Shown piece by piece: positions 26,470-56,614 of a DNA stretch of 64,000 nucleotides. Under the pieces are notes generated by a model that worked only from the letters and a program-made list of their open reading frames with translations, was not told where the DNA came from and made no database searches. Position 1 is the first letter of the stretch. Each line of letters starts with the position of its first letter. Both the position numbers and the translations under genes were made by a program. This DNA is from an uncultured archaeon (GTDB lineage: Archaea; Asgardarchaeota; Lokiarchaeia; Sigyniarchaeales; SOKP01), in contig CAZOYD010000005.1 in NCBI GenBank assembly GCA_964583985.1, positions 24,696 through 88,695 of the forward strand, in the 5' to 3' direction.

Positions 26470-27150
26470 TCACATCAAGAGTTTCATGCCTTCACGAACT
26501 TTGTATGTTTGATTGAAGCGATCAACATCGATGAATCTCTTGATTTCTAAATTATTTAGTAGATCCCGCATCTCAATCTTATCCTTGTTCAATTCCTTTG
26601 CTAATCCCTCTATATCTGATTCATGAGTACGTAACACCTTAAGTAAAGAAGAATAATTTTCATAAATTTGGTTTACAATATATTTTAATACTTCATTTAG
26701 ATTTTCACCGTTTCTAGTAATAGTTGGAAAGATAACTGCATCTGGTGGCAAATAGTTTTGTGAACGGACAACTTCTGGATGCCTAGCTCCCGCGATATCT
26801 TGTTTATTAGCTAAGTACACAATAGGGGTTTCAGGCATTAGAAGTTTCCTTATGGCATTAAGAATTATGATTCCATCTTCATCCTTTTCAGGGTGAGCTG
26901 CATCAAACATAAAAATGATCCCATCAGTACCTTGTACTATAACGTCTCTCATTACCTTGAATCTTAATAAACCTGGTGTTCCAAATAGAAACACATCAAA
27001 TCCATTCAATTTAACGATCCCTAAGTCCATACCCACCGTGTAATAATTATTATCTCTCGCTTTTGCTTCGACATTGAGAGCCTTTTCATCAAAATAACTA
27101 ATGAACGTTGATTTACCACATCTCAGTGGACCACAAACGCATATCTTAAT
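26470..27150 (-). CDS. MglA-like small GTPase with C-terminal winged HTH; probable ATT start
   Basis: Frame extends 38 codons upstream of the track ORF: IKICVCGPLRCGKST (G1), TVGMDLG (G2), LFGTPGL (G3), ANKQD (G4); in-frame TGA at 27157-27159; AGGTGA SD 6 nt before ATT at 27150. Confidence 0.85.
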   Translation of the reverse strand: MKICVCGPLRCGKSTFISYFDEKALNVEAKARDNNYYTVGMDLGIVKLNGFDVFLFGTPGLLRFKVMRDVIVQGTDGIIFMFDAAHPEKDEDGIIILNAIRKLLMPETPIVYLANKQDIAGARHPEVVRSQNYLPPDAVIFPTITRNGENLNEVLKYIVNQIYENYSSLLKVLRTHESDIEGLAKELNKDKIEMRDLLNNLEIKRFIDVDRFNQTYKVREGMKLLM

Positions 27151-27638
27151 CCTAATTCACCTTTCTACTAAAATTTTGTCGGATTCTATTAGTGTTTCGT
27201 ATATTGTTATGTTTTTATTAAATTCTTTTATTTTTAATTCGTTTAATATTCAGATAATATGAATCATTAACGCAAGATAATTTTAATCTAATGTGTAATC
27301 GGTGCTAATTCTTTATATCCCCGTGTTTATAAAAGAATGACCGATGTCGACGAAAAAATTATTCGTTTTTGTATATAAAATAAATTATTCTACATTTATA
27401 AATTTGCTCCTATCTTCAAATTGTCGGATTGTCATAGGAAAAAATCGAATTTCCTTAATTAATTTTGGTTATTTTTCTTGGGCAAAAAGGGAATTTTAAG
27501 ATCTAATTTCCTTAGATAAAATTAAGAATATTAAAAAAAAATAATGATATAAATTCTTTTTTATATACTATTTAGTCATCCTAATTTTTAAGCGAAAAGG
27601 CTTTTAAAATTGATTATAACTGAAACAGTCATTTTTTT

Positions 27639-27725
27639 CGTAATAATATGATCAAATACCGCGAAAAATTGATCAAATGACGTAAAAAATTGTTAAATTC
27701 GTACATTATATGTAATCTTTAAATA
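27639..27725 (+). promoter_or_regulatory. Phased ~21-bp repeats and TATA box of the hdr-met operon
   Basis: TGATCAAATACCGCGAAAAAT (27649) / TGATCAAATGACGTAAAAAAT (27670) / TGTTAAATTCGTA (27691), then TTTAAATA at 27718. Confidence 0.5.
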
Positions 27726-27862
27726 TGAAATAGTCATTAATACTCATTATAAAGATATATCTTACTGAAATTAACGATATCTTTTTTTTTTGATCGTTAA
27801 TTCATAAGCAATGTTGTAATTTAGTAAGATAAAAATAAAAAACAAACCAAAACTGAAGAAAA

Positions 27863-30800
27863 ATGCCAAATAGTAATATTATGGTAATAGGAGCAGGTAT
27901 ATCGGGAATAGAAACTTCTCTTACATTGGCTGATCAAGGATATAGAGTAATTCTAGTTGAGAAAACGTCCTCCGTAGGAGGTAGGATGGCACAACTAGAC
28001 AAAACTTTTCCGACATTAGATTGTTCCATATGTATATTAGCTCCCAAGATGGTCGAATCCTCGAGACATCCAAATATCGAACTAATTCCATATTCAGAAG
28101 TCCAAGAAGTTACAGGAGAGCCTGGGAATTTTGAAGTTAAGATTCTAAAAAAGGCTAAATACGTTAATTGGGACATCTGTACTGGATGTGGAGCTTGTTC
28201 TGAAAAATGCCCGATGAAAAAAATTCCTTCTGAATTTGAGGAGAAAATGGGAAATCGAACAGCAATTTATATACCATTCCCGCAAGCAGTACCACGAAAA
28301 GCAGTAATTGATGCAGAAAAATGCCTTTATTTAACGAAAGGTGCTTGTCAATTATGTGAAAAAGAGTGCGAAGCTGGTGCGATTAATTGGGAAATGAAGG
28401 ATGAAGTTGTGGGGTATAATGTAGCATCTATTGTTGTAGCAACTGGATTTGATCTACTAGATCCAGTAGTATTAGATAGATATCATTATGGTGAATATTC
28501 AAACGTCATAACTGCCATGCAATATGAGAGACTTTTAAGTGCTTCTGGTCCTACTGAAGGTGAATTGATTCGTCCTTCGGATAAAAAACACGTACACAAT
28601 GTGGCATTTATTAGTTGCGTAGGTTCCAGGAATGAAGATTTGTGTTCTTATTGTTCTAAATTTTGTTGCATGTATCAGACAAAAGAAGGCGTGGTAACCA
28701 GAGAACACTCCCCAGATACTAACGTGACAATATTTTTTAATGATATAAGGGTAATTGGAAAAAATCAAGAAGAATTCATTGAGCGAGCTAAAAATGAATA
28801 TGGGTTAATATATTATAGAGGAATTCCAGGTGATATTCGTGAAAACACTAAAAATCATAATTTATTTGTCAAACATGCAAATCTAGATACTGGAGATGTA
28901 GAAACTAGTGAATTTGACTTAGTAGTGCTAGCTAATGCGGTCACTCCCAGAAATGATGCTGGAAAATTAGCCAATATTTTAGGCATTGAACAGAACGAAT
29001 TTGGATTCTTTAAAACCAACGCCTCTACCGAGGATCTTCGATCTACAAGAGATGGAATTTACGTTACTGGTTCATGCCAATCACCTGATGATATTGCTAA
29101 TTCAGTTGCAAAAGCAGGTGCTGCTGCTGCTCTTGCAGCTACTCATGCCGTACCTCTAAGTGCTGAAGAAAGGGAAATTTCCCTACCACCATTAATACCT
29201 GTTAAAGCAGGAGATAAACCTAGAATTGGAGTGTTCATTTGTCGATGTGGAGTTAACATTGCTGGCTACATGGATGTCCCAAGCCTAGTAGATTATGCGG
29301 AAAAATTGCCAAATGTTGTGTTTTCTATGGAAAATAAGTATAGTTGCTCACAATTAACTCAGGATATTATTAAAGAAAAAATCAAAGAATTAAACTTAAA
29401 TCGAGTTGTTGTGGCAGCTTGCACGCCAAGAACTCATGAACCCTTATTCCAAAAAACAATCAGAGAAGCAGGATTAAACGAATATTTATTTAATTTCGTG
29501 AGCATTCGTGAATTAGATTCTTGGGTTCACATGCATGATAATCCAAGAGCTACTGATAAAGCTAAGGATTTAATTAGAATGGGAGTTGCTCGTGTAGCTG
29601 CTCAAAAAGCAGAATATAAAATCAAAGGTAAAGTTATACCCGAAGCTTTAGTGGTGGGTGGTGGTGTTGCTGGGATAAGTGCTGCAATAGAAATTGCTAA
29701 AAAAGGTTTTAAAGTTCATCTCGTTGAGAAAGAAGATAGATTAGGTGGTCAATTGAATTTAATATATAAAATTAATTTTGATAAAATTGATTCTAAACAA
29801 TTTTTGGAAGATCTACTTCAAGAATTCAATGGTATGAAAAACATCACTTCTTATTTAGGCTCTGAAATAGTTGAAATCAAGGGATCAATCGGTGACTTCA
29901 TCGTAAAGATCAAGAATAAGAAGGATAAACGTGATAATTTGAACGTGGGGGTAATAATAATAGCAACAGGAGCTTATGAATATAAACCAATTGATTGGTA
30001 TGATTATGGAAAGAATAAAAACATAATGACTCAACTCGAGTTATCCGAGAAACTTAAAAATGATGAACTCAAAGATGGGGAAACACTTGTTTTTATTCAT
30101 TGTGTAGGCTCAAGACAACCTGAAGGAGCTAATGGCGTAACTTATTGCTCTTTAATTTGTTGTTCGGAATCAATTCGACATGCCTTATATGTTAAGGAGA
30201 AATATCCGAATTCTAACATATATGTTTTATATCGAGATATTCGAGTTGGAACATACGAAGAACCTTATTACTGGAAAGCCCGTGAAGATGTCAACTATAT
30301 AAGATTCAATGAATATCCTGTTCTTGAAAATAAAGATGGTAAATTAAATATCGATGTTAAAGATATTCTAACTCAAACGGATCTTACGATTAGTGCTGAT
30401 AAAATAGTTTTATCGACGCCATTAATACCCTATGACACCAAGGCATTAGCTGAGCAAATTAAATGCGCTAGAGATCAAAATGGATTTTTCTTAGAAGCTC
30501 ACGTTAAACTTAGACCCGTGGATTTTGCAACAGATGGAATCTATTTAGCAGGAACTTGTCATGGGCCTAAAGGGATAGCTGATTCCATATCTCAAGCGAG
30601 AGGTGCCGCAGCACATGCATTAATTCCTCTTATTTCTGGAGAAGTCGAGAATGAACCCTTAGTTTCAGTTGTAGATCCCTCTTTATGCATAGCATGTCAA
30701 AAATGTGAAGAAGTCTGCAATTTTGGAGCTATTGGTGTAAATTTTGATAATGAAATATTGGTTTCTGAATCAAACCCATTGTTATGTAAGGGTTGTGGAG

Positions 30801-31348
30801 ATTGCTCAGCCGCTTGTCCTACTGGTGCAATCACAATGAGACATTTTTCAGATGATCAAATTTATCCAATGATAAAAGAAGCTACACGGGGTGAATTCTT
30901 AGACGAACGTCCACGTATCGTAGCTTTTTTATGCAATTGGTGTAGTTACGCTGGTGCTGACACTTGCGGAGTGAGTCGATTCCAGTACCCAACTAACGTT
31001 AGACCTATTCGAGTAATGTGTACAGGTAGAATTCCCAAAAGCTTTATTCTACAAGCATTTTTGGAAGGAGCCGATGGAGTACTTATAGGAGGATGCCATA
31101 TTGGAGATTGTCATTACTTGGAAGGAAATTATGACATGCTGCGACGATTTAATGAAGTTCAAGAACTCCTTGAAAAGGTTGGAATCAATCCAAAACGATA
31201 TCATTTAGAATGGGTTTCTGCAAGTGAAGGAAAAAAGTTCTCACAAGTTGTTACTCAATTTGTGAATCAAGTTAAAGAATTAGGTCCGATTCCTAAAACT
31301 GGCGATAAAATTGAACCCAAAAAAGAAAAAGCAAAGGAGGGAGCATAA
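27863..31348 (+). CDS. hdrA: HdrA-like flavoprotein with two FAD modules, fused C-terminally to MvhD
   Basis: IGAGISG + DKTFPTLDCSIC + inserted 2x[4Fe-4S]; internal RIGVFICRCG HdrA N-domain; second VVGGGVAG module; C-terminal ferredoxin; MvhD FLCNWCSYAGAD, RVMCTGR, GCHIGDCHY. Confidence 0.95.
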   Translation: MPNSNIMVIGAGISGIETSLTLADQGYRVILVEKTSSVGGRMAQLDKTFPTLDCSICILAPKMVESSRHPNIELIPYSEVQEVTGEPGNFEVKILKKAKYVNWDICTGCGACSEKCPMKKIPSEFEEKMGNRTAIYIPFPQAVPRKAVIDAEKCLYLTKGACQLCEKECEAGAINWEMKDEVVGYNVASIVVATGFDLLDPVVLDRYHYGEYSNVITAMQYERLLSASGPTEGELIRPSDKKHVHNVAFISCVGSRNEDLCSYCSKFCCMYQTKEGVVTREHSPDTNVTIFFNDIRVIGKNQEEFIERAKNEYGLIYYRGIPGDIRENTKNHNLFVKHANLDTGDVETSEFDLVVLANAVTPRNDAGKLANILGIEQNEFGFFKTNASTEDLRSTRDGIYVTGSCQSPDDIANSVAKAGAAAALAATHAVPLSAEEREISLPPLIPVKAGDKPRIGVFICRCGVNIAGYMDVPSLVDYAEKLPNVVFSMENKYSCSQLTQDIIKEKIKELNLNRVVVAACTPRTHEPLFQKTIREAGLNEYLFNFVSIRELDSWVHMHDNPRATDKAKDLIRMGVARVAAQKAEYKIKGKVIPEALVVGGGVAGISAAIEIAKKGFKVHLVEKEDRLGGQLNLIYKINFDKIDSKQFLEDLLQEFNGMKNITSYLGSEIVEIKGSIGDFIVKIKNKKDKRDNLNVGVIIIATGAYEYKPIDWYDYGKNKNIMTQLELSEKLKNDELKDGETLVFIHCVGSRQPEGANGVTYCSLICCSESIRHALYVKEKYPNSNIYVLYRDIRVGTYEEPYYWKAREDVNYIRFNEYPVLENKDGKLNIDVKDILTQTDLTISADKIVLSTPLIPYDTKALAEQIKCARDQNGFFLEAHVKLRPVDFATDGIYLAGTCHGPKGIADSISQARGAAAHALIPLISGEVENEPLVSVVDPSLCIACQKCEEVCNFGAIGVNFDNEILVSESNPLLCKGCGDCSAACPTGAITMRHFSDDQIYPMIKEATRGEFLDERPRIVAFLCNWCSYAGADTCGVSRFQYPTNVRPIRVMCTGRIPKSFILQAFLEGADGVLIGGCHIGDCHYLEGNYDMLRRFNEVQELLEKVGINPKRYHLEWVSASEGKKFSQVVTQFVNQVKELGPIPKTGDKIEPKKEKAKEGA

Positions 31349-31351
31349 AAA

Positions 31352-31882
31352 ATGACTCAAATGCTAAAAAAAAATACATCAGATCTAGACACCAATTTTC
31401 GCTATGAAATTAGTGAAAAAGTAGGAGCAAAATCCCTGTTAAAATGTATACAGTGTGGGGTTTGTTCCTCTGGATGTACGGTCACTGAATATGTGGACAT
31501 GCAACCCCATCGAGTCGTTGCCTCATGTCTCTTGGGGTTAAAGGAAGAAGTGCTTTCAAGTCAAGCGATCTGGACTTGCTCTTTATGCCATAGATGTACT
31601 GAAAGATGTCCTAAAAACGTGGATTATTCTTTTATCTTAGCTCTTCTGCGAAATATGGCAGTAAAAAGAGGTACGGTTCCTAAAGAATATTCAGGCACCG
31701 TAGTAACGATCTACAATAATGGATTTGTAGTTCCTTATACTGGTGGATTAAAAGACAACATTGATAGAAGAAGAAATAAAATGGGATTACCCCAGATTGT
31801 ACCACCTAATTTAGAAGAAATTAGATTCATTATTGAAGAAACTGGATTAGGTGAACTAGCAAAAAAAAAGGAGGATGAATAA
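31352..31882 (+). CDS. hdrC: Heterodisulfide reductase subunit C
   Basis: CIQCGVCSSGC, WTCSLCHRCTERCP. Confidence 0.93.
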   Translation: MTQMLKKNTSDLDTNFRYEISEKVGAKSLLKCIQCGVCSSGCTVTEYVDMQPHRVVASCLLGLKEEVLSSQAIWTCSLCHRCTERCPKNVDYSFILALLRNMAVKRGTVPKEYSGTVVTIYNNGFVVPYTGGLKDNIDRRRNKMGLPQIVPPNLEEIRFIIEETGLGELAKKKEDE

Positions 31883-31884
31883 AT

Positions 31885-32772
31885 ATGGAGAAATCATATG
31901 CCTTTTTTCCAGGATGTAGCATACCCTTGAAATCACCTCATTTAGAGAAAGCATTTCGGGATGTTGCAAGAATTTTAGGCTTAAAATTGACAGAAATGGA
32001 AGGTGTGAGTTGCTGTCCAGAACCAGTATCATTACAATCTCTGAACATGGATACGTGGGTGGCATTAGGAGCAAGAAATCTTGCGATTGCAGAAAAAATG
32101 GGTATGGACATTCTAACGATTTGTTCTGGTTGTTTTGAAACCTTGAAAACTGTTAGTGTTCTCTTAGCTGAAGACAAGGAATATCTTAAAAAAATAAATC
32201 AAATCTTGAAAAAAATCAATTATTCGTATTCTGGTAAAGTAAAAGTATATCATTTTGTCGAAATATTTAGTCAACCTGAATGGTTAGACAAAATAAAGAG
32301 TTCAATAGTGAGACCATTAGATGATATGATCATTGCCGTACATTACGGTTGCCATTTGATTCGACCAAGTAAAATAATGCAATTTGATCACCCAGAGAAA
32401 CCTGAAAAAATCGATATAATCCTTCAAACTTTAGGAGCAAGAACCATTGAATATGCTAATAAATTAGAATGTTGTGGCTTTTGTGCCCGTTTACAAGAGG
32501 AAATTGGTGATAAATTAGTAGAAGACAAAATGACAGAACTATGCGGACTTGAAGAAGAAGTCGACACTTTAATAGCAGTGTGTCCGGCTTGTACAACCCA
32601 ATATGATCGGAAAGAGAAACTTGCGGCTCGTAAAACTGGTAAAACATTAGATATTCCCGTACTATATTTAGCGGAAATAATGGCAATAGCATTAGGTGTA
32701 AATTTAGAAGATCTTAGTTTGAATAATAGATCTGTCAAACCAAATAAGTTAATTGAAAAATTAACAACCTAA
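31885..32772 (+). CDS. hdrB: Heterodisulfide reductase subunit B (two CCG domains)
   Basis: FPGC, SCCP, CSGC, HYGCH, ECCG, CPAC. Confidence 0.95.
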   Translation: MEKSYAFFPGCSIPLKSPHLEKAFRDVARILGLKLTEMEGVSCCPEPVSLQSLNMDTWVALGARNLAIAEKMGMDILTICSGCFETLKTVSVLLAEDKEYLKKINQILKKINYSYSGKVKVYHFVEIFSQPEWLDKIKSSIVRPLDDMIIAVHYGCHLIRPSKIMQFDHPEKPEKIDIILQTLGARTIEYANKLECCGFCARLQEEIGDKLVEDKMTELCGLEEEVDTLIAVCPACTTQYDRKEKLAARKTGKTLDIPVLYLAEIMAIALGVNLEDLSLNNRSVKPNKLIEKLTT

Positions 32773-32852
32773 ATATGAGATTTTTTCTCTCAAATAATTT
32801 AAAATTAAATTTAAGAAAAAAGTGAGAATTAGTAATTTGGAGATAAACGAAA

Positions 32853-33548
32853 ATGATTATTACCGAATTAAAAGATATTGTAGAAATTTATGATATGGTA
32901 AAAGATTACAAAAAAATATTAATCGCAGGATGCGATGGTTGCTGTCAACCTCCAAGATCTCTCAATGAAGCAAAATTTCTTGGGCAAATGTTAGAATTAA
33001 AAGCACGTACCGAAGGAAAGGATCTTACTTGGAAAGCTGTAACTGTTTTAAGACAATGTGATGACAGAATTGCATCTACTACCATCCGACCATTTGTAGA
33101 AGATTATGAAGCTATAGTTAGTTTATCATGTGGTCTTGGAGTTGTAATGTTAAATAAAGTATTTCCAAAGATTTTAACATTTCCCGCTCAGAATAGCATG
33201 TTTGGTGGAGTACAAAATAATGGTGAGAATAGTTTCATTGAATATTGTGAAGAATGTGGCGAATGCATTATTGGAGAAACAGGTGGCGTATGTCCGCGTG
33301 CCGGATGTGCGAAACATCTGAGTAATGGTCCCTGTGGTGGTATGGTTGACGGGATGTGTGAAGTTGGAGGATATACAATTCCATGTGCGTGGGTTCGTAT
33401 TTGGGAAAGATTAAAGGAGTTCAATAGGCTCGATCTATTTAAAAAATATAGACCGCCACGAGACTATCGAAAATCTACCAGTCCCAGCTATTTAACTATT
33501 TATAAAGATTATACAAATGAAGAAGTCAAAGAGGAGGCGAAAGAATAA
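32853..33548 (+). CDS. metV: MetV (Zn/Fe-S subunit of methylene-THF reductase, MTHFR_C)
   Basis: GCDGCC, RQCD, SCGLG, CEECGEC, GGVCP, CAKHLSNGPCGG, CEV, CAW. Confidence 0.92.
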   Translation: MIITELKDIVEIYDMVKDYKKILIAGCDGCCQPPRSLNEAKFLGQMLELKARTEGKDLTWKAVTVLRQCDDRIASTTIRPFVEDYEAIVSLSCGLGVVMLNKVFPKILTFPAQNSMFGGVQNNGENSFIEYCEECGECIIGETGGVCPRAGCAKHLSNGPCGGMVDGMCEVGGYTIPCAWVRIWERLKEFNRLDLFKKYRPPRDYRKSTSPSYLTIYKDYTNEEVKEEAKE

Positions 33549-34502
33549 ATGGCAAGAAGACCAGCTTATAGTAATTTATGTAAAGCAATTGAAGCAGGAC
33601 ATTTTGTGTTTACTGGTGAACTTGAACCTAAAAAAATCTTGGATCTTAGCGAGATTATCTATTCTGCAAAAGAAATGAAAAAAACTGGAAGAATAGTAGC
33701 AGCTAACGTCACCGATGGTCCACAAGGCGATGCTTACATGTCATCATTAGTTCCAAGCTATAAAATTCAAGAAGAAGCAGGTATTGAGGCAGTTTGGCAA
33801 GTAACTATTCGTGACCGAAATCGGGTTGCTCTTTTTGGAGACGTAGTGGCAGGAGCTGTCTTAGGATTGAAGAATATTTTAACACTTACAGGAGATCATA
33901 CTGCTCTTGGAGATCATAAACGTGCTCGACCTGTCTATGATATTGATAGTACTCAATTTGCAGAAATGCTTTCAATGATGATAGATGAAGGAACTGACTA
34001 TGAAGGAAATGAAATCCAAGGGGGCAAGATAGAAATGAATTTTGGCTGTGTTGCTAACCCTAATAGTAACCCGCGGGAACCTGAAATTTTAAAAGTTGGA
34101 CGAAAAGTCGAACAAGGGGTCGATTTTATTCAAACCCAGACCGCATTTGATATTGATCAAGCGAAAGAGTTTCTCAAAGAATTAGAACAATTTAATGTTC
34201 CAGTACTACTCGGAGTATTTCCACTAAAATCTTACGGTATAGCATGGTATTTTGATGCTAATATACCTGGAGTGAGTGTTCCAAAAGATCTTCTCAAAGC
34301 ACTTAAAAAAGCAGAGAAAGATAACAAGGGTAATAAACAGGGTAAATATGATGCATTGGATAAGATTAATATTGAATTTTTCGCCCCATTTATCAGAGAA
34401 ATCAAAAAAACAACGAAAGCTGCTGGCATACATTGCATGGCTGTTGAATATGAAAGACTCTTTGACCCATTATTGAAAGAATATCCGAAATACGTAAATT
34501 AA
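33549..34502 (+). CDS. metF: Methylenetetrahydrofolate reductase MetF (MetV-associated type)
   Basis: TGELEP, ANVTD, QVTIRDRNR, LTGDH, FIQTQ, GIHCM. Confidence 0.93.
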   Translation: MARRPAYSNLCKAIEAGHFVFTGELEPKKILDLSEIIYSAKEMKKTGRIVAANVTDGPQGDAYMSSLVPSYKIQEEAGIEAVWQVTIRDRNRVALFGDVVAGAVLGLKNILTLTGDHTALGDHKRARPVYDIDSTQFAEMLSMMIDEGTDYEGNEIQGGKIEMNFGCVANPNSNPREPEILKVGRKVEQGVDFIQTQTAFDIDQAKEFLKELEQFNVPVLLGVFPLKSYGIAWYFDANIPGVSVPKDLLKALKKAEKDNKGNKQGKYDALDKINIEFFAPFIREIKKTTKAAGIHCMAVEYERLFDPLLKEYPKYVN

Positions 34503-34585
34503 CCAAAAATCAGAAATAATGTATTTTTTATTTAAAATTTAAATTTTTTTTATATATTTGTAAGAAAAACGGTAGGTAGAAAAAA

Positions 34586-35032
34586 ATGAAAAATATGGAT
34601 GAGAAAGATAAAAGAATATTAGAAATGCTTATAGAAGATTCTAGAAGACCATATCGTGAAGTTGCAGACGACGTTGGCTTATCTGAATCAACTGTAAGAA
34701 AACGAGTTTTAAAACTCCAAGAGGAAGGAGTAATCGAGAAATTTACAATAAAAATCTGCCGTGAAGAAGAAAGATGTATTATCGCTTTCCTTACCTTAAT
34801 TCCAAGAAATGAGTCTGAAATGAAAGATTTATTGCGTGAAACGCAAATTATTCCTCAGTGTGAGGAAGTATACTTTCTTGCAGGTCAATGTGGAGTATTA
34901 GTGAAGGTTAATATCCCGGAAATAACGGAACTGGACGCTTTAATAGAAAATTTCAGGGGAAGAAGCGATGTAAAAAGTGTTGAAAGGGTATGCGTGGTAT
35001 TAAAACCTATTAAGACAAAGTTAAAAGATTAA
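34586..35032 (+). CDS. Lrp/AsnC-family transcriptional regulator
   Basis: MDEKDKRILEMLIEDSRRPYREVA...SESTVRKRV. Confidence 0.92.
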   Translation: MKNMDEKDKRILEMLIEDSRRPYREVADDVGLSESTVRKRVLKLQEEGVIEKFTIKICREEERCIIAFLTLIPRNESEMKDLLRETQIIPQCEEVYFLAGQCGVLVKVNIPEITELDALIENFRGRSDVKSVERVCVVLKPIKTKLKD

Positions 35033-48983: not shown

Positions 48984-49649
48984 ATGACGATAATCACAAC
49001 AAAAAAGCCCTTTGAAGAGATATTAACTGCAATTAAGGATGTAAAAAGAATAACTATTGTTTCTTGTGCGAGTTGTGCTGCCATGTGCCAGACTGGAGGA
49101 ACTGAAGGTGCCAAGGAAATGGCGGAGAAATTAGAAGCTGAAGGTTATGAGATCTCTACTGTAATTGTACCCGAGGAAGTATGTGACAACCGAGTTATGA
49201 AAAAAGATTTTCGTAAAATCGAAGAACAACTTCAACATACTGATGCTATCCTTACTCTAAGTTGTGGACTTGGAGTTGCAAGCATTACAGAAGTTCTCTC
49301 AAATAAATTTCCTCTAATTCCTGTTTTTGTTGGAACAAATACCGAATTTATGGGTATGACTGAAAGGATCGGAAGATTTTACATGCGATGTCGGGGTTGC
49401 GGCAATTGTCTGTTGAATGAAACTGGAGGAATTTGTCCCATTACAACATGTGCCAAATCTTTAATGAATGGACCTTGTGGAGGAATGGTTGATGGCAAGT
49501 GCGAAGTAGGAAATTATGAAAGAGATTGCGGGTGGGTATTAATATATAAACGCTTGAAAGAACTTGGAAGATTAGATCTGTTTTCAAAGTTACGTGACTC
49601 TGTAGATTGGAGTGAAAGTGGTCACCAAAGAGAAGTTGTATGGAGGTAG
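48984..49649 (+). CDS. metV: MetV paralog 2
   Basis: SCASCAAMCQTGG, VCD, SCGLG, CRGCGNC, GGICP, CAKSLMNGPCGG, CGW. Confidence 0.93.
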   Translation: MTIITTKKPFEEILTAIKDVKRITIVSCASCAAMCQTGGTEGAKEMAEKLEAEGYEISTVIVPEEVCDNRVMKKDFRKIEEQLQHTDAILTLSCGLGVASITEVLSNKFPLIPVFVGTNTEFMGMTERIGRFYMRCRGCGNCLLNETGGICPITTCAKSLMNGPCGGMVDGKCEVGNYERDCGWVLIYKRLKELGRLDLFSKLRDSVDWSESGHQREVVWR

Positions 49650-49656
49650 AAAAAAC

Positions 49657-50586
49657 ATGACTGAGAAAAAGATATTTTCCAAATTAGGAGAAAAACTTGC
49701 CAGTGGTGAATTCATATTAACAGGAGAGCTTGAACCAGAGAAAACGACAGATTTAAGCCATACGATTCACGAAGCGAAAGAGATGGCTCCATATGTGGTT
49801 GCCGCAAATATGACCGATAGTCCTTTAGGAATCGTAACAATTAATAGCATGGCTGCTACCCATATAATTCAGCGTGAATCAGGGTTGGAATGCATTTGGC
49901 AGTTGACAGTTAGGGATGTGAATAAATTAGGTATTGCTGGTATGTTGATGGGAGCTCATGCTTTAGGTATAAGAAATATCCTCTCACTCACGGGAGATCA
50001 TACCGCTTTAGGAGATATGCCAGAAAGTAAACCAGTTTTTGATTTAGATTCCGCGACTTTAGTTAAGTTAGTACGAGAGATGGTTGATAAGGGGTCAATA
50101 AATGGACATGAAATAGAGGCTCCACCTACATTACATGTTGGTGCTGCTGCAAATCCTAATGCCAATCCAATGGAGGCAGAAATCCTTAAAATTGGGCGAA
50201 AAGCTGAGGCTGGGGCTGAATTCATTCAAACTCAAGTTGTATATGATTTAGATAAGACTATTGAATTTTTATCAGCTATTAAAAAGTATAAAGTACCCGT
50301 TTTATTAGGGATATTCCCAATGAAGAGCTATGGTATAGCAAAAGGTTTTGATGAGTTTGTTCCAGGCGTGAGTGTACCTAAAGAGATATTAGCACGTTGG
50401 AAATCTATTAAAAAGGATTTTTCTGATAAGAAAATGCAAAATGAAGCCTACGATCAAGCCAATTATGAATTTTTCAAGCCTTTCATTTCTGAACTCAAAC
50501 AGAAGAAACTCTTGGCAGGAGTTCACTGCATGGCGGTCCATTATCCCAGAATATTTCCCAAATTACGAGAAGTTGTTTTTAATTAA
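49657..50586 (+). CDS. metF: MetF paralog 2
   Basis: TGELEP, ANMTD, QLTVRD, LTGDH, FIQTQ, GVHCM; ATG 49657 with GGAGGT SD. Confidence 0.93.
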   Translation: MTEKKIFSKLGEKLASGEFILTGELEPEKTTDLSHTIHEAKEMAPYVVAANMTDSPLGIVTINSMAATHIIQRESGLECIWQLTVRDVNKLGIAGMLMGAHALGIRNILSLTGDHTALGDMPESKPVFDLDSATLVKLVREMVDKGSINGHEIEAPPTLHVGAAANPNANPMEAEILKIGRKAEAGAEFIQTQVVYDLDKTIEFLSAIKKYKVPVLLGIFPMKSYGIAKGFDEFVPGVSVPKEILARWKSIKKDFSDKKMQNEAYDQANYEFFKPFISELKQKKLLAGVHCMAVHYPRIFPKLREVVFN

Positions 50587-55561: not shown

Positions 55562-56614
55562 ATGATAGAGTTTCCTAAATTCGATGATGTTGGGAGTTTT
55601 CCTTTACCCGATTATATCGATATTGACAAGTTCAAGCAATTTTACTGGGCGGGATACAAGGGAATATTAAATAATGCCGATATATTTGAGAACCGGGGGA
55701 TTTATAATTATTTTATTCACCCCTTTCTTCAATCTTTTCAATTAAAATTGAATGCTGGAGTAGAAATCATAAATTATCCCCAACTCATGGACATGTATAC
55801 TCAATTTCTAAAACCCCTTGAAGATTATGAAAAAGAACCTTCTTTAATTGATCCCCAAAAAGCTATTATTCCCGAACTATTTATCTTAGAATCTTTTACG
55901 AAAGATTATTTTGAAAGAACGGGAAATGCTCTAGAAATTAAAGTATGCATTACAGGACCTATAGAATTGTATATTAAAAAGTATGGGTTTACTGTATATC
56001 CCGATATTGTATTCAATTTTGCAAAATCCCTCAATTCCTTTCTTAAAAAATCCATAAAAAATTCTAAATACTTGCAAACTTCCGTTATCTCTATTGATGA
56101 ACCTTCATTTGGATATGTCGACATATTTAATATTGAAGACGATGCCTTGATTAAGGCATTTGATAAAACAGTGGAGGGAATAGATGCGGATATTCAAATA
56201 CATCTTCACACATTAAAAAAAAATGATGTTCCAATTCAATCAAAAAACATTGACGTGCTAACTTGCGAATATGCTTCTGATCATTCAAATGTTATCCCAA
56301 AAAAGGATTTGGATCATTATGATAAATATATTAGAGTTGGTATCACCAGAACCAATATCAATAGCATAATGGCCGAAAAATTGGATGCGGGGATATTATA
56401 TGATGAACTTAAAACATATGAGGGAACATTGAGTTTAATTGATTCTAAAGAATTCATCAAAAAAAATCTTCTTTTCGCAATAAATCATTATGAAGATCGC
56501 TTGAAATATATCGGACCTGATTGTGGATTAAAAGGATGGAATCCTCCACAAGTTGCGTATGAATTATTACGAAGAACCTATCAAGTTATCAAGGAAGTTA
56601 AAAATAATATTTAA
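55562..56614 (+). CDS. Core (single-barrel) methionine synthase, MesC-like
   Basis: DDVGSFPLP, NYPQ, CITGP, IDEPS, IHLH, E, GPDCGL. Confidence 0.8.
   Translation: MIEFPKFDDVGSFPLPDYIDIDKFKQFYWAGYKGILNNADIFENRGIYNYFIHPFLQSFQLKLNAGVEIINYPQLMDMYTQFLKPLEDYEKEPSLIDPQKAIIPELFILESFTKDYFERTGNALEIKVCITGPIELYIKKYGFTVYPDIVFNFAKSLNSFLKKSIKNSKYLQTSVISIDEPSFGYVDIFNIEDDALIKAFDKTVEGIDADIQIHLHTLKKNDVPIQSKNIDVLTCEYASDHSNVIPKKDLDHYDKYIRVGITRTNINSIMAEKLDAGILYDELKTYEGTLSLIDSKEFIKKNLLFAINHYEDRLKYIGPDCGLKGWNPPQVAYELLRRTYQVIKEVKNNI

What the first reader, a model, noticed from the sequence alone, without database searches (positions are those of the whole stretch)
27863..35032. Archaeal HdrA::MvhD-HdrC-HdrB-MetV-MetF operon: candidate electron-bifurcating methylene-folate/pterin reductase complex
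Seen: six co-oriented genes with gaps of 3, 2, 80, 0 and 83 nt; MvhD is fused to HdrA and no mvhAG hydrogenase or formate dehydrogenase genes lie in the operon. Known: in methanogens MvhD connects HdrABC to its electron donor, and in the acetogen Moorella thermoacetica a MetFV-HdrABC-MvhD complex has been proposed as a bifurcating methylene-THF reductase; archaea classically use F420-dependent Mer for this step. Inference: this Asgard archaeon wires MetVF directly into Hdr through MvhD, coupling the methyl/methylene step to ferredoxin and, because the HdrB CCG cysteines are intact, to a thiol/disulfide pair. I cannot confirm whether it has been described in Asgard archaea.
Basis: partly seen in the sequence, partly recalled or inferred. 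Interest (0 to 1): 0.8.

Follow-up and report, generated by a model that had tools for sequence, protein, structure and literature searches.

The report
Asgard Hdr-linked methylene-pterin reductase operon
A sediment-dwelling Asgard archaeon keeps the enzyme for one carbon-reduction step next to an electron-splitting flavoprotein, and natural gene swaps among relatives point to the small piece that probably plugs the two together; it is an archaeal variant of an enzyme type already proposed in acetate-making bacteria.

Summary
Observation confirmed; the sixth gene is an Lrp regulator. HdrA is a doubled HdrA fused to MvhD. Only its first flavin module has the bifurcation residues (E222/K274) and the inserted ferredoxin, and there is no NAD(P)H module. 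The order is kept in 58 of 77 close Lokiarchaeial loci and recurs in another order of the class and in two more distant Asgard families. New evidence: in relatives, the C-terminal ferredoxin + MvhD piece stays with metVF while the HdrA body is replaced (by a paralog, AU tests; once by a GltD/NfnB-type body) and hdrCB drop out. So MetVF probably docks on MvhD, the hydrogenase site (ESMFold2 0.52 vs control 0.00, weak). The family has Mch, Mtd and ACS but no canonical Mer (0/67) or Fhs (0/55), which favours methylene-H4MPT as substrate. The operon is not the sole Mer substitute: a second metVF lies 14 kb downstream, one genus lost the operon, and other Asgard carry it beside Mer. The kind is known (Moorella, Sporomusa, Syntrophoarchaeum), and this scan noted the operon before in other genomes. 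Verdict: new variant of a known kind.

The parts
27718..27725 (+). TATA-like box 145 nt upstream of hdrA; probable operon promoter
   Evidence: Sequence. A TATA-like box was found in 25 of 30 homologous leaders, 144-163 nt upstream in the 13 printed. Function inferred.
27863..31348 (+). hdrA::mvhD, a doubled HdrA fused to MvhD (1161 aa)
27863..29167 (+). HdrA module 1: FAD/TrxR domain with inserted 2x[4Fe-4S] ferredoxin, Cys57 (= Cys197), E222/K274 (= E356/K409); no N-terminal FeS domain; predicted bifurcating half
   Evidence: Numbering counted on the 5ODC/8RVU alignments; these residues are invariant in 58/58 homologs
29207..30652 (+). HdrA module 2: N-terminal FeS domain plus a TrxR domain lacking the inserted ferredoxin, the Cys197 motif and E/K (S728, R772); predicted non-bifurcating half of an intramolecular pseudo-dimer
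   Evidence: S728 in 58/58, R772 in 56/58
30653..31285 (+). C-terminal ferredoxin + MvhD [2Fe-2S]: the part that stays with metVF when the HdrA body is swapped; proposed MetV docking site
   Evidence: Sliding identity, trees and AU tests, weak complex prediction
31352..31882 (+). hdrC (2x[4Fe-4S])
31885..32772 (+). hdrB: ten CCG Cys + His kept; CoB-binding basic residues kept (K16/R202/R242); Gly-rich CoM loop shortened and carrying an invariant extra Cys200
   Evidence: residue roles from PMC13261682
32853..33548 (+). metV (copy 1), 13 Cys, FeS/Zn subunit
   Evidence: PF12225; Cys conservation
33549..34502 (+). metF (copy 1), flavin methylene-pterin reductase of the uncultured-archaeal type
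   Evidence: PF02219; tree
34586..35032 (+). Lrp/AsnC-family regulator that travels with metVF1
   Evidence: follows metF in 73 loci; role inferred
48984..50586 (+). second, standalone metV2-metF2 pair (41% and 47% identical to copy 1); a paralog outside the operon

Best explanation
The operon encodes an Hdr-type MetVF reductase complex. MetVF docks through MetV on the C-terminal ferredoxin-MvhD end of HdrA, the site where a hydrogenase or formate dehydrogenase docks in methanogens. The two HdrA modules fold as an asymmetric intramolecular dimer: module 1 holds the bifurcating FAD and the ferredoxin arm, and HdrCB form the high-potential disulfide arm. The most likely C1 substrate is methylene-/methyl-H4MPT, so the complex serves the Mer step of the archaeal Wood-Ljungdahl methyl branch. 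Proposed reaction, reversible and close to equilibrium: 2 methyl-H4MPT + X-S-S-X + oxidised ferredoxin = 2 methylene-H4MPT + 2 X-SH + reduced ferredoxin. It would run as bifurcation when acetyl units are oxidised and as confurcation in acetogenesis. Shown: genes, domains, residues, synteny, chimeras and pathway inventory. Inferred: docking (about 0.75), H4MPT substrate (about 0.65), true bifurcation with an unknown disulfide (about 0.55). Direction unknown.
For: (1) The link survives five gene orders: A::D-C-B-V-F in this family and in G278 of another order; A::D-V-F (L112, G277); V-A::D-C-B (G089); V-F-A::D-C-B-mer-mer (G064); and the chimeric type B. (2) Type-B HdrA is chimeric. Residues 1 to about 930 match paralogs of another Hdr operon; holding this body with the window type is rejected (p-AU 0.00017). 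Its C-terminal ferredoxin groups with the window type (support 95; grouping with the paralogs rejected, p-AU 4.5e-6), as does its MvhD (support 98; the alternative is not formally rejected, p 0.07). G008 has a GltD/NfnB-type body on the same ferredoxin-MvhD end, in the same chromosomal slot. (3) ESMFold2 of ferredoxin-MvhD with MetV: weak support, 0.52 vs best control 0.00. The mark was reached by 58 of 80 solved and 2 of 110 mismatched pairs, but at 0.60 or under by only 7 of the 80 solved and by both mismatches; runs agree in at least 94% of contacts, partner pLDDT at least 82. No MetV relative was found in the PDB, so this is unlikely to be recall of a like complex. (4) E356/K409, the inserted ferredoxin and Cys197 are invariant in module 1. 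(5) Family inventory: Mer above cut-off 0/67, Fhs 0/55, Mch in all 29 tested, Mtd 49/54, ACS beta 48/54, CofE present; no AcsE-like pterin-binding protein found in the own genome. (6) mer lies next to the operon in G064 and G277. (7) With MetVF at MvhD, bifurcation is near equilibrium for H4MPT (-15 to +27 kJ) and uphill for H4F (+31 to +74 kJ) (the H4MPT value of -320 mV and the -281 mV disulfide value are from memory).
Against: The standalone MetVF2 occurs in nearly all family members and could do the Mer step. Genus g13 cleanly lost the operon yet keeps Mch, ACS and metVF2, with Mtd in 1 of 4. FolD- and FolP-like genes are present, so H4F exists as an alternative substrate. Operon carriers in other lineages have Mer, so the operon did not arise as a Mer replacement. 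hdrCB can be lost from adjacency (L112, G008, G277). The HdrB CoM loop is remodelled, and comA and mcrA were not found. Part of the co-travel of MvhD with metV could be plain linkage. In Sporomusa, MetVF and Hdr did not co-purify, and the authors' model also allows MetVF downstream of HdrCB (PMC9430772).
Confidence: 0.5

Rival explanations
1. Acetogen-like topology or substrate: an external donor (a hydrogenase acting in trans, an FrhB-type F420H2 module, or NADH) feeds MvhD/HdrA, and MetVF is the high-potential acceptor, reducing methylene-H4F, possibly reached through HdrCB.
For: This is the model for Moorella and Sporomusa (PMC9430772, PMC5861303). The genome has FolD, FolP and two NiFe hydrogenase clusters. 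In the window order, metV follows hdrB.
Against: hdrCB, not MvhD, is what drops out next to metV. No Fhs or AcsE was found for an H4F methyl branch. The hydrogenases sit in clusters with their own Hdr genes. HdrA has no GltD domain.
Confidence: 0.2
2. Non-bifurcating wire: HdrA/MvhD only relays ferredoxin electrons to MetVF. HdrB, with the extra Cys200 next to its proximal cluster, is an electron buffer or acts on a protein disulfide in a separate reaction.
For: MetVF enzymes accept reduced ferredoxin directly (PMC8515935). The G008 variant does without the bifurcating body and HdrBC, which shows that the ferredoxin-MvhD end can be kept on an unrelated flavoprotein. The HdrB loop is remodelled.
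Against: E222/K274 and all HdrB cluster ligands and basic substrate residues are conserved. The type-B chimera brought in a body with its own hdrCB upstream.
Confidence: 0.17
3. Co-regulation only: metVF1 is transcribed from its own promoter in the 80-nt gap and works with free ferredoxin, and the Hdr module serves another partner.
For: The gap is conserved at 61-126 nt and has a T5 run in 65/66 loci, against 44% of comparable gaps in this genome, which is compatible with a terminator. The genome has about 14 HdrA paralogs.
Against: In type-B loci the mvhD-metV gap is only 18-40 nt. The link persists through five gene orders and two body swaps. Interface prediction passes weakly.
Confidence: 0.1

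Closest known systems
Hdr-type (type IV / 6S) methylene-THF reductase HdrCBA-MvhD-MetVF of Moorella thermoacetica (Mock 2014, as described in PMC9430772, PMC5861303, PMC8515935)
   Same: Same six components in one cluster; doubled HdrA; proposed bifurcation.
   Different: Moorella HdrA has an NADH-binding GltD insert, E/K in both TrxR domains and a separate MvhD, and acts on H4F. Here there is no NAD(P)H module, MvhD is fused, E/K occur only in module 1, the order differs, and the host has an H4MPT branch.
Sporomusa ovata HdrCBA-MvhD-MetVF (Kremp 2022, PMC9430772)
   Same: Two TrxR domains, only the first with E/K; no GltD insert; pull-down evidence for MvhD/Hdr contact with MetF.
   Different: S. 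ovata HdrA lacks the inserted ferredoxin domain, which is present and invariant here. It is membrane- and quinone-linked and bacterial.
Ca. Syntrophoarchaeum MetFV-HdrA-MvhD cluster and ANME-1-type MetF (Chadwick 2022, PMC9012536)
   Same: Archaeal; MetF of the uncultured-archaeal clade that includes Asgard sequences; Mer missing; H4MPT use and Hdr coupling already proposed. A locus of this kind was retrieved: metV-metF-hdrA-frhB-hdrA-hdrA-mvhD.
   Different: There the HdrA genes are separate and an FrhB gene is included. Here a single doubled HdrA::MvhD lies with hdrCB in the operon.
Methanogen HdrABC-MvhADG (PDB 5ODC, 8RVU)
   Same: All domains, E356/K409, Cys197, HdrB cluster ligands and CoB-binding basic residues have counterparts.
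   Different: No MvhAG in the operon, asymmetric single-chain HdrA, altered CoM loop, and no mcrA or comA found.
Fused heterodimeric HdrA3/HdrA4 of ANME (PMC9012536)
   Same: Complementary loss of Cys197 and of the N-terminal FeS domain between two fused modules.
   Different: The order is reversed here: the first module has Cys197 and the second has the N-terminal domain.

Membership tests
Hdr-type (type IV) MTHFR | metV, metF, hdrA, hdrB, hdrC and mvhD in one gene cluster | tested here: met
Hdr-type (type IV) MTHFR | MetV with conserved FeS/Zn cysteines, adjacent to MetF | tested here: met
   PF12225; 12 Cys columns invariant in a 74-sequence alignment
Hdr-type (type IV) MTHFR | NAD(P)H-binding GltD insert in HdrA (Moorella form; absent in Sporomusa too) | tested here: not met
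   No Fer4_20 in the window HdrA; present in the G008 variant
Hdr-type (type IV) MTHFR | Physical complex of MetVF with Hdr/MvhD | tested here: inconclusive
   Weak pass, 0.52 vs 0.00; chimera phylogeny is indirect
Hdr-type (type IV) MTHFR | One transcription unit | not testable with these tools
   No reads could be laid on the locus; gap analysis is ambiguous
Hdr-type (type IV) MTHFR | Substrate methylene-H4F | not testable with these tools
   Genome context favours H4MPT but FolD/FolP are present
Bifurcating HdrABC (methanogen type) | E356 and K409 at the FAD | tested here: met
   Module 1 E222/K274 in 58/58; module 2 has S/R
Bifurcating HdrABC (methanogen type) | Inserted ferredoxin domain and Cys197 | tested here: met
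   Eight Cys plus Cys57 invariant in 58/58
Bifurcating HdrABC (methanogen type) | HdrB with two CCG non-cubane cluster sites | tested here: met
   Ten Cys plus His conserved in 69 homologs
Bifurcating HdrABC (methanogen type) | CoM-S-S-CoB binding site and host CoM/CoB cycle | tested here: inconclusive
   R14/R201/R240 kept as K16/R202/R242; G46 and G198 replaced and extra Cys200; comA and mcrA not found, ComDE-like pair below cut-off
HdrABC-MvhADG hydrogenase complex | mvhA/mvhG partner in the operon | tested here: not met
   hydrogenases lie on C16 and C43 with other Hdr genes
MetF as Mer substitute (ANME-1/Syntrophoarchaeum type) | H4MPT branch present, canonical Mer and Fhs absent | tested here: met
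   Mer 0/67, Fhs 0/55, Mch 29/29, Mtd 49/54 in the family
MetF as Mer substitute (ANME-1/Syntrophoarchaeum type) | This copy is the one that replaces Mer | tested here: inconclusive
   Genus g13 lost it but keeps Mch, ACS and metVF2; other lineages carry it with Mer

The most novel reading that the evidence does not exclude
An ancient, Asgard-wide enzyme in which methyl-H4MPT itself is the hydride donor of Hdr-type electron bifurcation. MetVF replaces the hydrogenase on a dedicated, transplantable ferredoxin-MvhD plug, and HdrB turns over a disulfide other than CoM-S-S-CoB, using its extra cysteine. It would close the missing Mer step of Loki-3 archaea with built-in ferredoxin coupling. In lineages that also have Mer, the two enzymes could together convert F420H2 into reduced ferredoxin through the pterin pool.
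Probability: 0.3. Interest if true: 0.75.

Novelty: new variant of a known kind. Interest (0 to 1): 0.55.

Why it matters
Two open points become testable. First, Loki-3 archaea are reported to have an H4MPT Wood-Ljungdahl pathway that lacks canonical mer (Yin 2021, PMC8027215), and Lokiarchaeal Hdr was expressed without detectable MvhADG (Orsi preprint 10.1101/826495). This operon is a concrete candidate for both gaps. Second, the wiring of Hdr-type MetVF complexes is unresolved even in Moorella and Sporomusa. The natural chimeras here point to a 216-residue ferredoxin-MvhD fragment as the MetVF adaptor, which is small enough to express and assay. If the complex bifurcates from methyl-H4MPT, it changes the energy budgets drawn for abundant sediment Asgard archaea. 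The concept itself is already in the literature for bacteria and for Syntrophoarchaeum, which limits the surprise.

Tried and rejected
RNA evidence: no RNA holder was listed for the locus, so co-transcription was not tested. A conserved hairpin after hdrB was rejected (median z +0.28 over 66 loci). The sigma-70/terminator scan gave chance-level counts and does not suit archaea. The hypothesis that the operon arose as the replacement after Mer loss was rejected, because G064, G277 and G278 carry both. The hypothesis that it is the only Mer substitute is weakened by genus g13 and by metVF2. The best Mer-like protein of the genome scores 144 bits against a cut-off of 349 and matches generic F420-dependent LLM families; it is not excluded as a distant Mer. 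The homolog search with MetF1 returned only close relatives, so no bacterial reference sequences entered the trees; the MetF tree is midpoint-rooted and says nothing on donor or direction of transfer. The module-1 tree did not finish. Residue-level prediction of H4F versus H4MPT specificity was not attempted, for lack of a characterised H4MPT-using MetF. Paper searches found no description of this operon in Asgard archaea; the library lacks most subscription papers, and Mock 2014 was read only through citing papers.
Full report
OBSERVATION. The six ORFs and the gaps of 3, 2, 80, 0 and 83 nt are as stated. They encode HdrA::MvhD (1161 aa), HdrC, HdrB, MetV, MetF and an Lrp/AsnC regulator. No hydrogenase or formate dehydrogenase gene is in the cluster. 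A TATA-like box lies 145 nt upstream of hdrA and recurs in 25 of 30 homologous leaders.

HOST. The closest loci come from MAGs titled Promethearchaeota or Promethearchaeia, including Loki_b31 at 89% MetF identity. I take the family to be the Loki-3 group; this is an inference from these titles and from the shared lack of mer. The genome has about 14 HdrA paralogs, five other HdrB genes and several free MvhD genes, with both NiFe hydrogenases in their own Hdr clusters.

ANATOMY OF HdrA. Against solved methanogen HdrA, the protein is two HdrA modules in one chain. Module 1 (aa 1-435) has the FAD domain, the inserted ferredoxin and Cys57, which corresponds to Cys197. It also has E222 and K274, which correspond to E356 and K409 of 5ODC, the residues used as a bifurcation signature (PMC9430772). 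Module 2 has the N-terminal FeS domain and a second FAD motif, but no inserted ferredoxin, no Cys197 motif, and S728/R772 in place of E/K. The C-terminal ferredoxin and MvhD follow. The module-1 residues and S728 are invariant in 58 homologs. This complementary loss is the pattern that Chadwick et al. interpret as a self-contained heterodimer (PMC9012536), here in reversed order. There is no GltD-type NAD(P)H domain, unlike in Moorella.

HdrB. All ten CCG cysteines and the His ligand are conserved in 69 homologs. The CoB-binding R14, R201 and R240 of 5ODR (PMC13261682) map to K16, R202 and R242, which are conserved. The glycine-rich loop that binds the CoM sulfonate is two residues shorter and carries an invariant extra Cys200. 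That cysteine is shared with the metV-linked HdrB of G036, G089 and G278, but not with G064 or with the four paralogs of this genome that were aligned. comA and mcrA were not found, and a ComDE-like pair scores below cut-off. The catalytic clusters are intact, but the disulfide is unknown and need not be CoM-S-S-CoB.

SYNTENY. Of 77 close loci, 58 have the full order, 7 have it up to a contig end, 9 have metV directly behind an MvhD-ending gene, and 3 are cut off. The ferredoxin-MvhD end was found in 96 of 116 family genomes, almost always as a single match. The same order occurs in G278, from another order of the class, and A::D-V-F occurs in G277. Two more distant Asgard families have metV-hdrA::mvhD-hdrC-hdrB (G089) and metV-metF-hdrA::mvhD-hdrC-hdrB-mer-mer (G064). 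Their HdrA bodies group with the window type (support 98). The link is therefore old within Asgard or has spread among them; these genomes are kin, and no direction is claimed.

THE CONSTANT PART IS FERREDOXIN-MvhD-metVF. In type-B genomes (genera g1, g12, g16) the HdrA in front of metV is a chimera. Over residues 1 to about 930 it is mostly 45-87% identical in sliding windows to paralogs from another Hdr operon and 27-73% to the window protein, and the relation flips after about residue 935. Trees agree. For the module-2 body, type B groups with the paralogs (support 98), and one clade with type A is rejected (p-AU 0.00017). For the C-terminal ferredoxin, types A and B group together (95), and type B with the paralogs is rejected (p-AU 4.5e-6). 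For MvhD, A and B group together (98); the alternative is not formally rejected (p 0.07). G008 has a third body of GltD/NfnB type on the same ferredoxin-MvhD end, without hdrCB, at the same chromosomal position. L112 has the window-type HdrA with hdrCB missing from the cluster. hdrCB lie closer to metV than MvhD does in the window order, yet they are the part that is lost, so linkage alone does not easily explain the pattern; it may still contribute. ESMFold2 gave weak support for a ferredoxin-MvhD:MetV complex: 0.52 against a best control of 0.00, contacts agreeing in at least 94%, partner pLDDT at least 82. The mark was reached by 58 of 80 solved and 2 of 110 mismatched pairs, but at 0.60 or under by only 7 of the 80 solved and by both mismatches. 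No MetV relative was found in the PDB.

WHICH PTERIN. In the family, canonical Mer was not found in 67 genomes searched and Fhs not in 55. Mch was found in all 29 tested, Mtd in 49/54, the ACS beta subunit in 48/54 and CofE in all tested. The own genome has no AcsE-like protein among its pterin-binding hits. This matches the report that Loki-3 MAGs lack typical mer (PMC8027215). MetF1 and MetF2 are both 45-51% identical to most other Asgard and to euryarchaeal sequences of the type Chadwick et al. suggest use H4MPT. Against a simple replacement story: FolD and FolP are present; genus g13 lost the whole operon cleanly but keeps Mch, ACS and metVF2, with Mtd in 1 of 4; and G064, G277 and G278 have the operon together with Mer. 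In two of these, mer is a close neighbour, which favours the same C1 pool.

MECHANISM. In methanogens electrons enter at MvhD, pass the C-terminal ferredoxin and split at the FAD to HdrBC and to ferredoxin (PMC9012536). Placing MetVF at that entry makes methyl-pterin the donor. With -320 mV for H4MPT (from memory), -140 or -281 mV for the disulfide and -420 or -500 mV for ferredoxin, the reaction lies between -15 and +27 kJ. With H4F at -200 mV it lies between +31 and +74 kJ, feasible only as confurcation (-200, -140 and -420 mV from PMC5861303, -500 mV from PMC8515935, -281 mV from memory). My best reading is a reversible methylene-H4MPT reductase coupled to ferredoxin and an unknown disulfide (confidence 0.5). 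Rivals: the acetogen-like wiring or H4F substrate (0.2), a non-bifurcating wire (0.17), and co-regulation only (0.1). The 80-nt gap is unresolved. It has a T run in 65 of 66 loci against 44% background, but type-B gaps are only 18-40 nt.

COMPARISON AND NOVELTY. It works like the Hdr-type MTHFR of Moorella and Sporomusa and meets the gene-content definition. It lacks the Moorella NADH module, keeps the inserted ferredoxin that Sporomusa lacks, fuses MvhD and sits in an H4MPT host. Archaeal MetFV-HdrA-MvhD clusters and the H4MPT coupling idea are published for Ca. Syntrophoarchaeum, and I retrieved such a locus. I found no paper on the Asgard operon. Earlier notes of this scan record it in other genomes. 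The additions here are the chimera evidence for the adaptor, the reach beyond the family, the HdrB loop change and the limits set by g13 and by Mer co-occurrence. Verdict: real, new variant of a known kind, interest 0.55.

Noticed in passing
window 48984-50586: Second metV-metF pair without Hdr genes, kept in nearly all family genomes, including those that lost the operon; in genus g14 it lies close upstream of the operon on the opposite strand.
   Followed up: partly
L173:7344-10076 (G008; same gene as L051:4344-7076): A 910-aa GltD/NfnB-type flavoprotein fused to the same ferredoxin-MvhD end, directly before metVF: a probable NAD(P)H-linked version of the reductase without the bifurcating HdrA body.
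   Followed up: partly
L062, L063, L061, L071, L172 (other Asgard families): Canonical mer lies within a few kb of metVF in several Asgard lineages, so both reductases are clustered in the same genomes.
   Followed up: partly
G000 contig C2:75084-87985: Glycine-cleavage-like genes (read by eye as T, H, P1, P2) lie between mch and mtd, which hints at an H4MPT-linked glycine cleavage system in a genome without Fhs.
   Followed up: no
window 27649-27700: Two 21-nt direct repeats at 21-bp spacing (81% identical) just upstream of the TATA box; a GATC-type motif recurs near -68 in about a third of homologs or more; possible Lrp operator.
   Followed up: partly
window 27745-27865: The roughly 120-nt leader folds into a long hairpin around a T10 run (z -2.2); the leader length is conserved but the sequence is not, and the structure was not tested in homologs.
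   Followed up: partly
window 55562-56614: Short archaeal-type methionine synthase-like gene (PRK06052, below cut-off) 5 kb downstream of metVF2; a possible anabolic link.
   Followed up: no
window 26470-27156 (- strand): Small GTPase-winged-helix gene divergent from the operon. The called ORF lacks the P-loop, and homologs are 220-230 aa, so the true start is further upstream.
   Followed up: no
G000 contigs C1:8791-25338, C11:2669-15298, C13:36611-49820: Very large Hdr repertoire, with several more doubled HdrA genes (about 1000 aa), free mvhD and FrhB-like neighbours.
   Followed up: partly
L191, L192, L193 (other orders of the class): Arrays of several HdrA and HdrA::MvhD genes in a row without metVF nearby, so a fused MvhD alone does not imply a MetVF link.
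   Followed up: no
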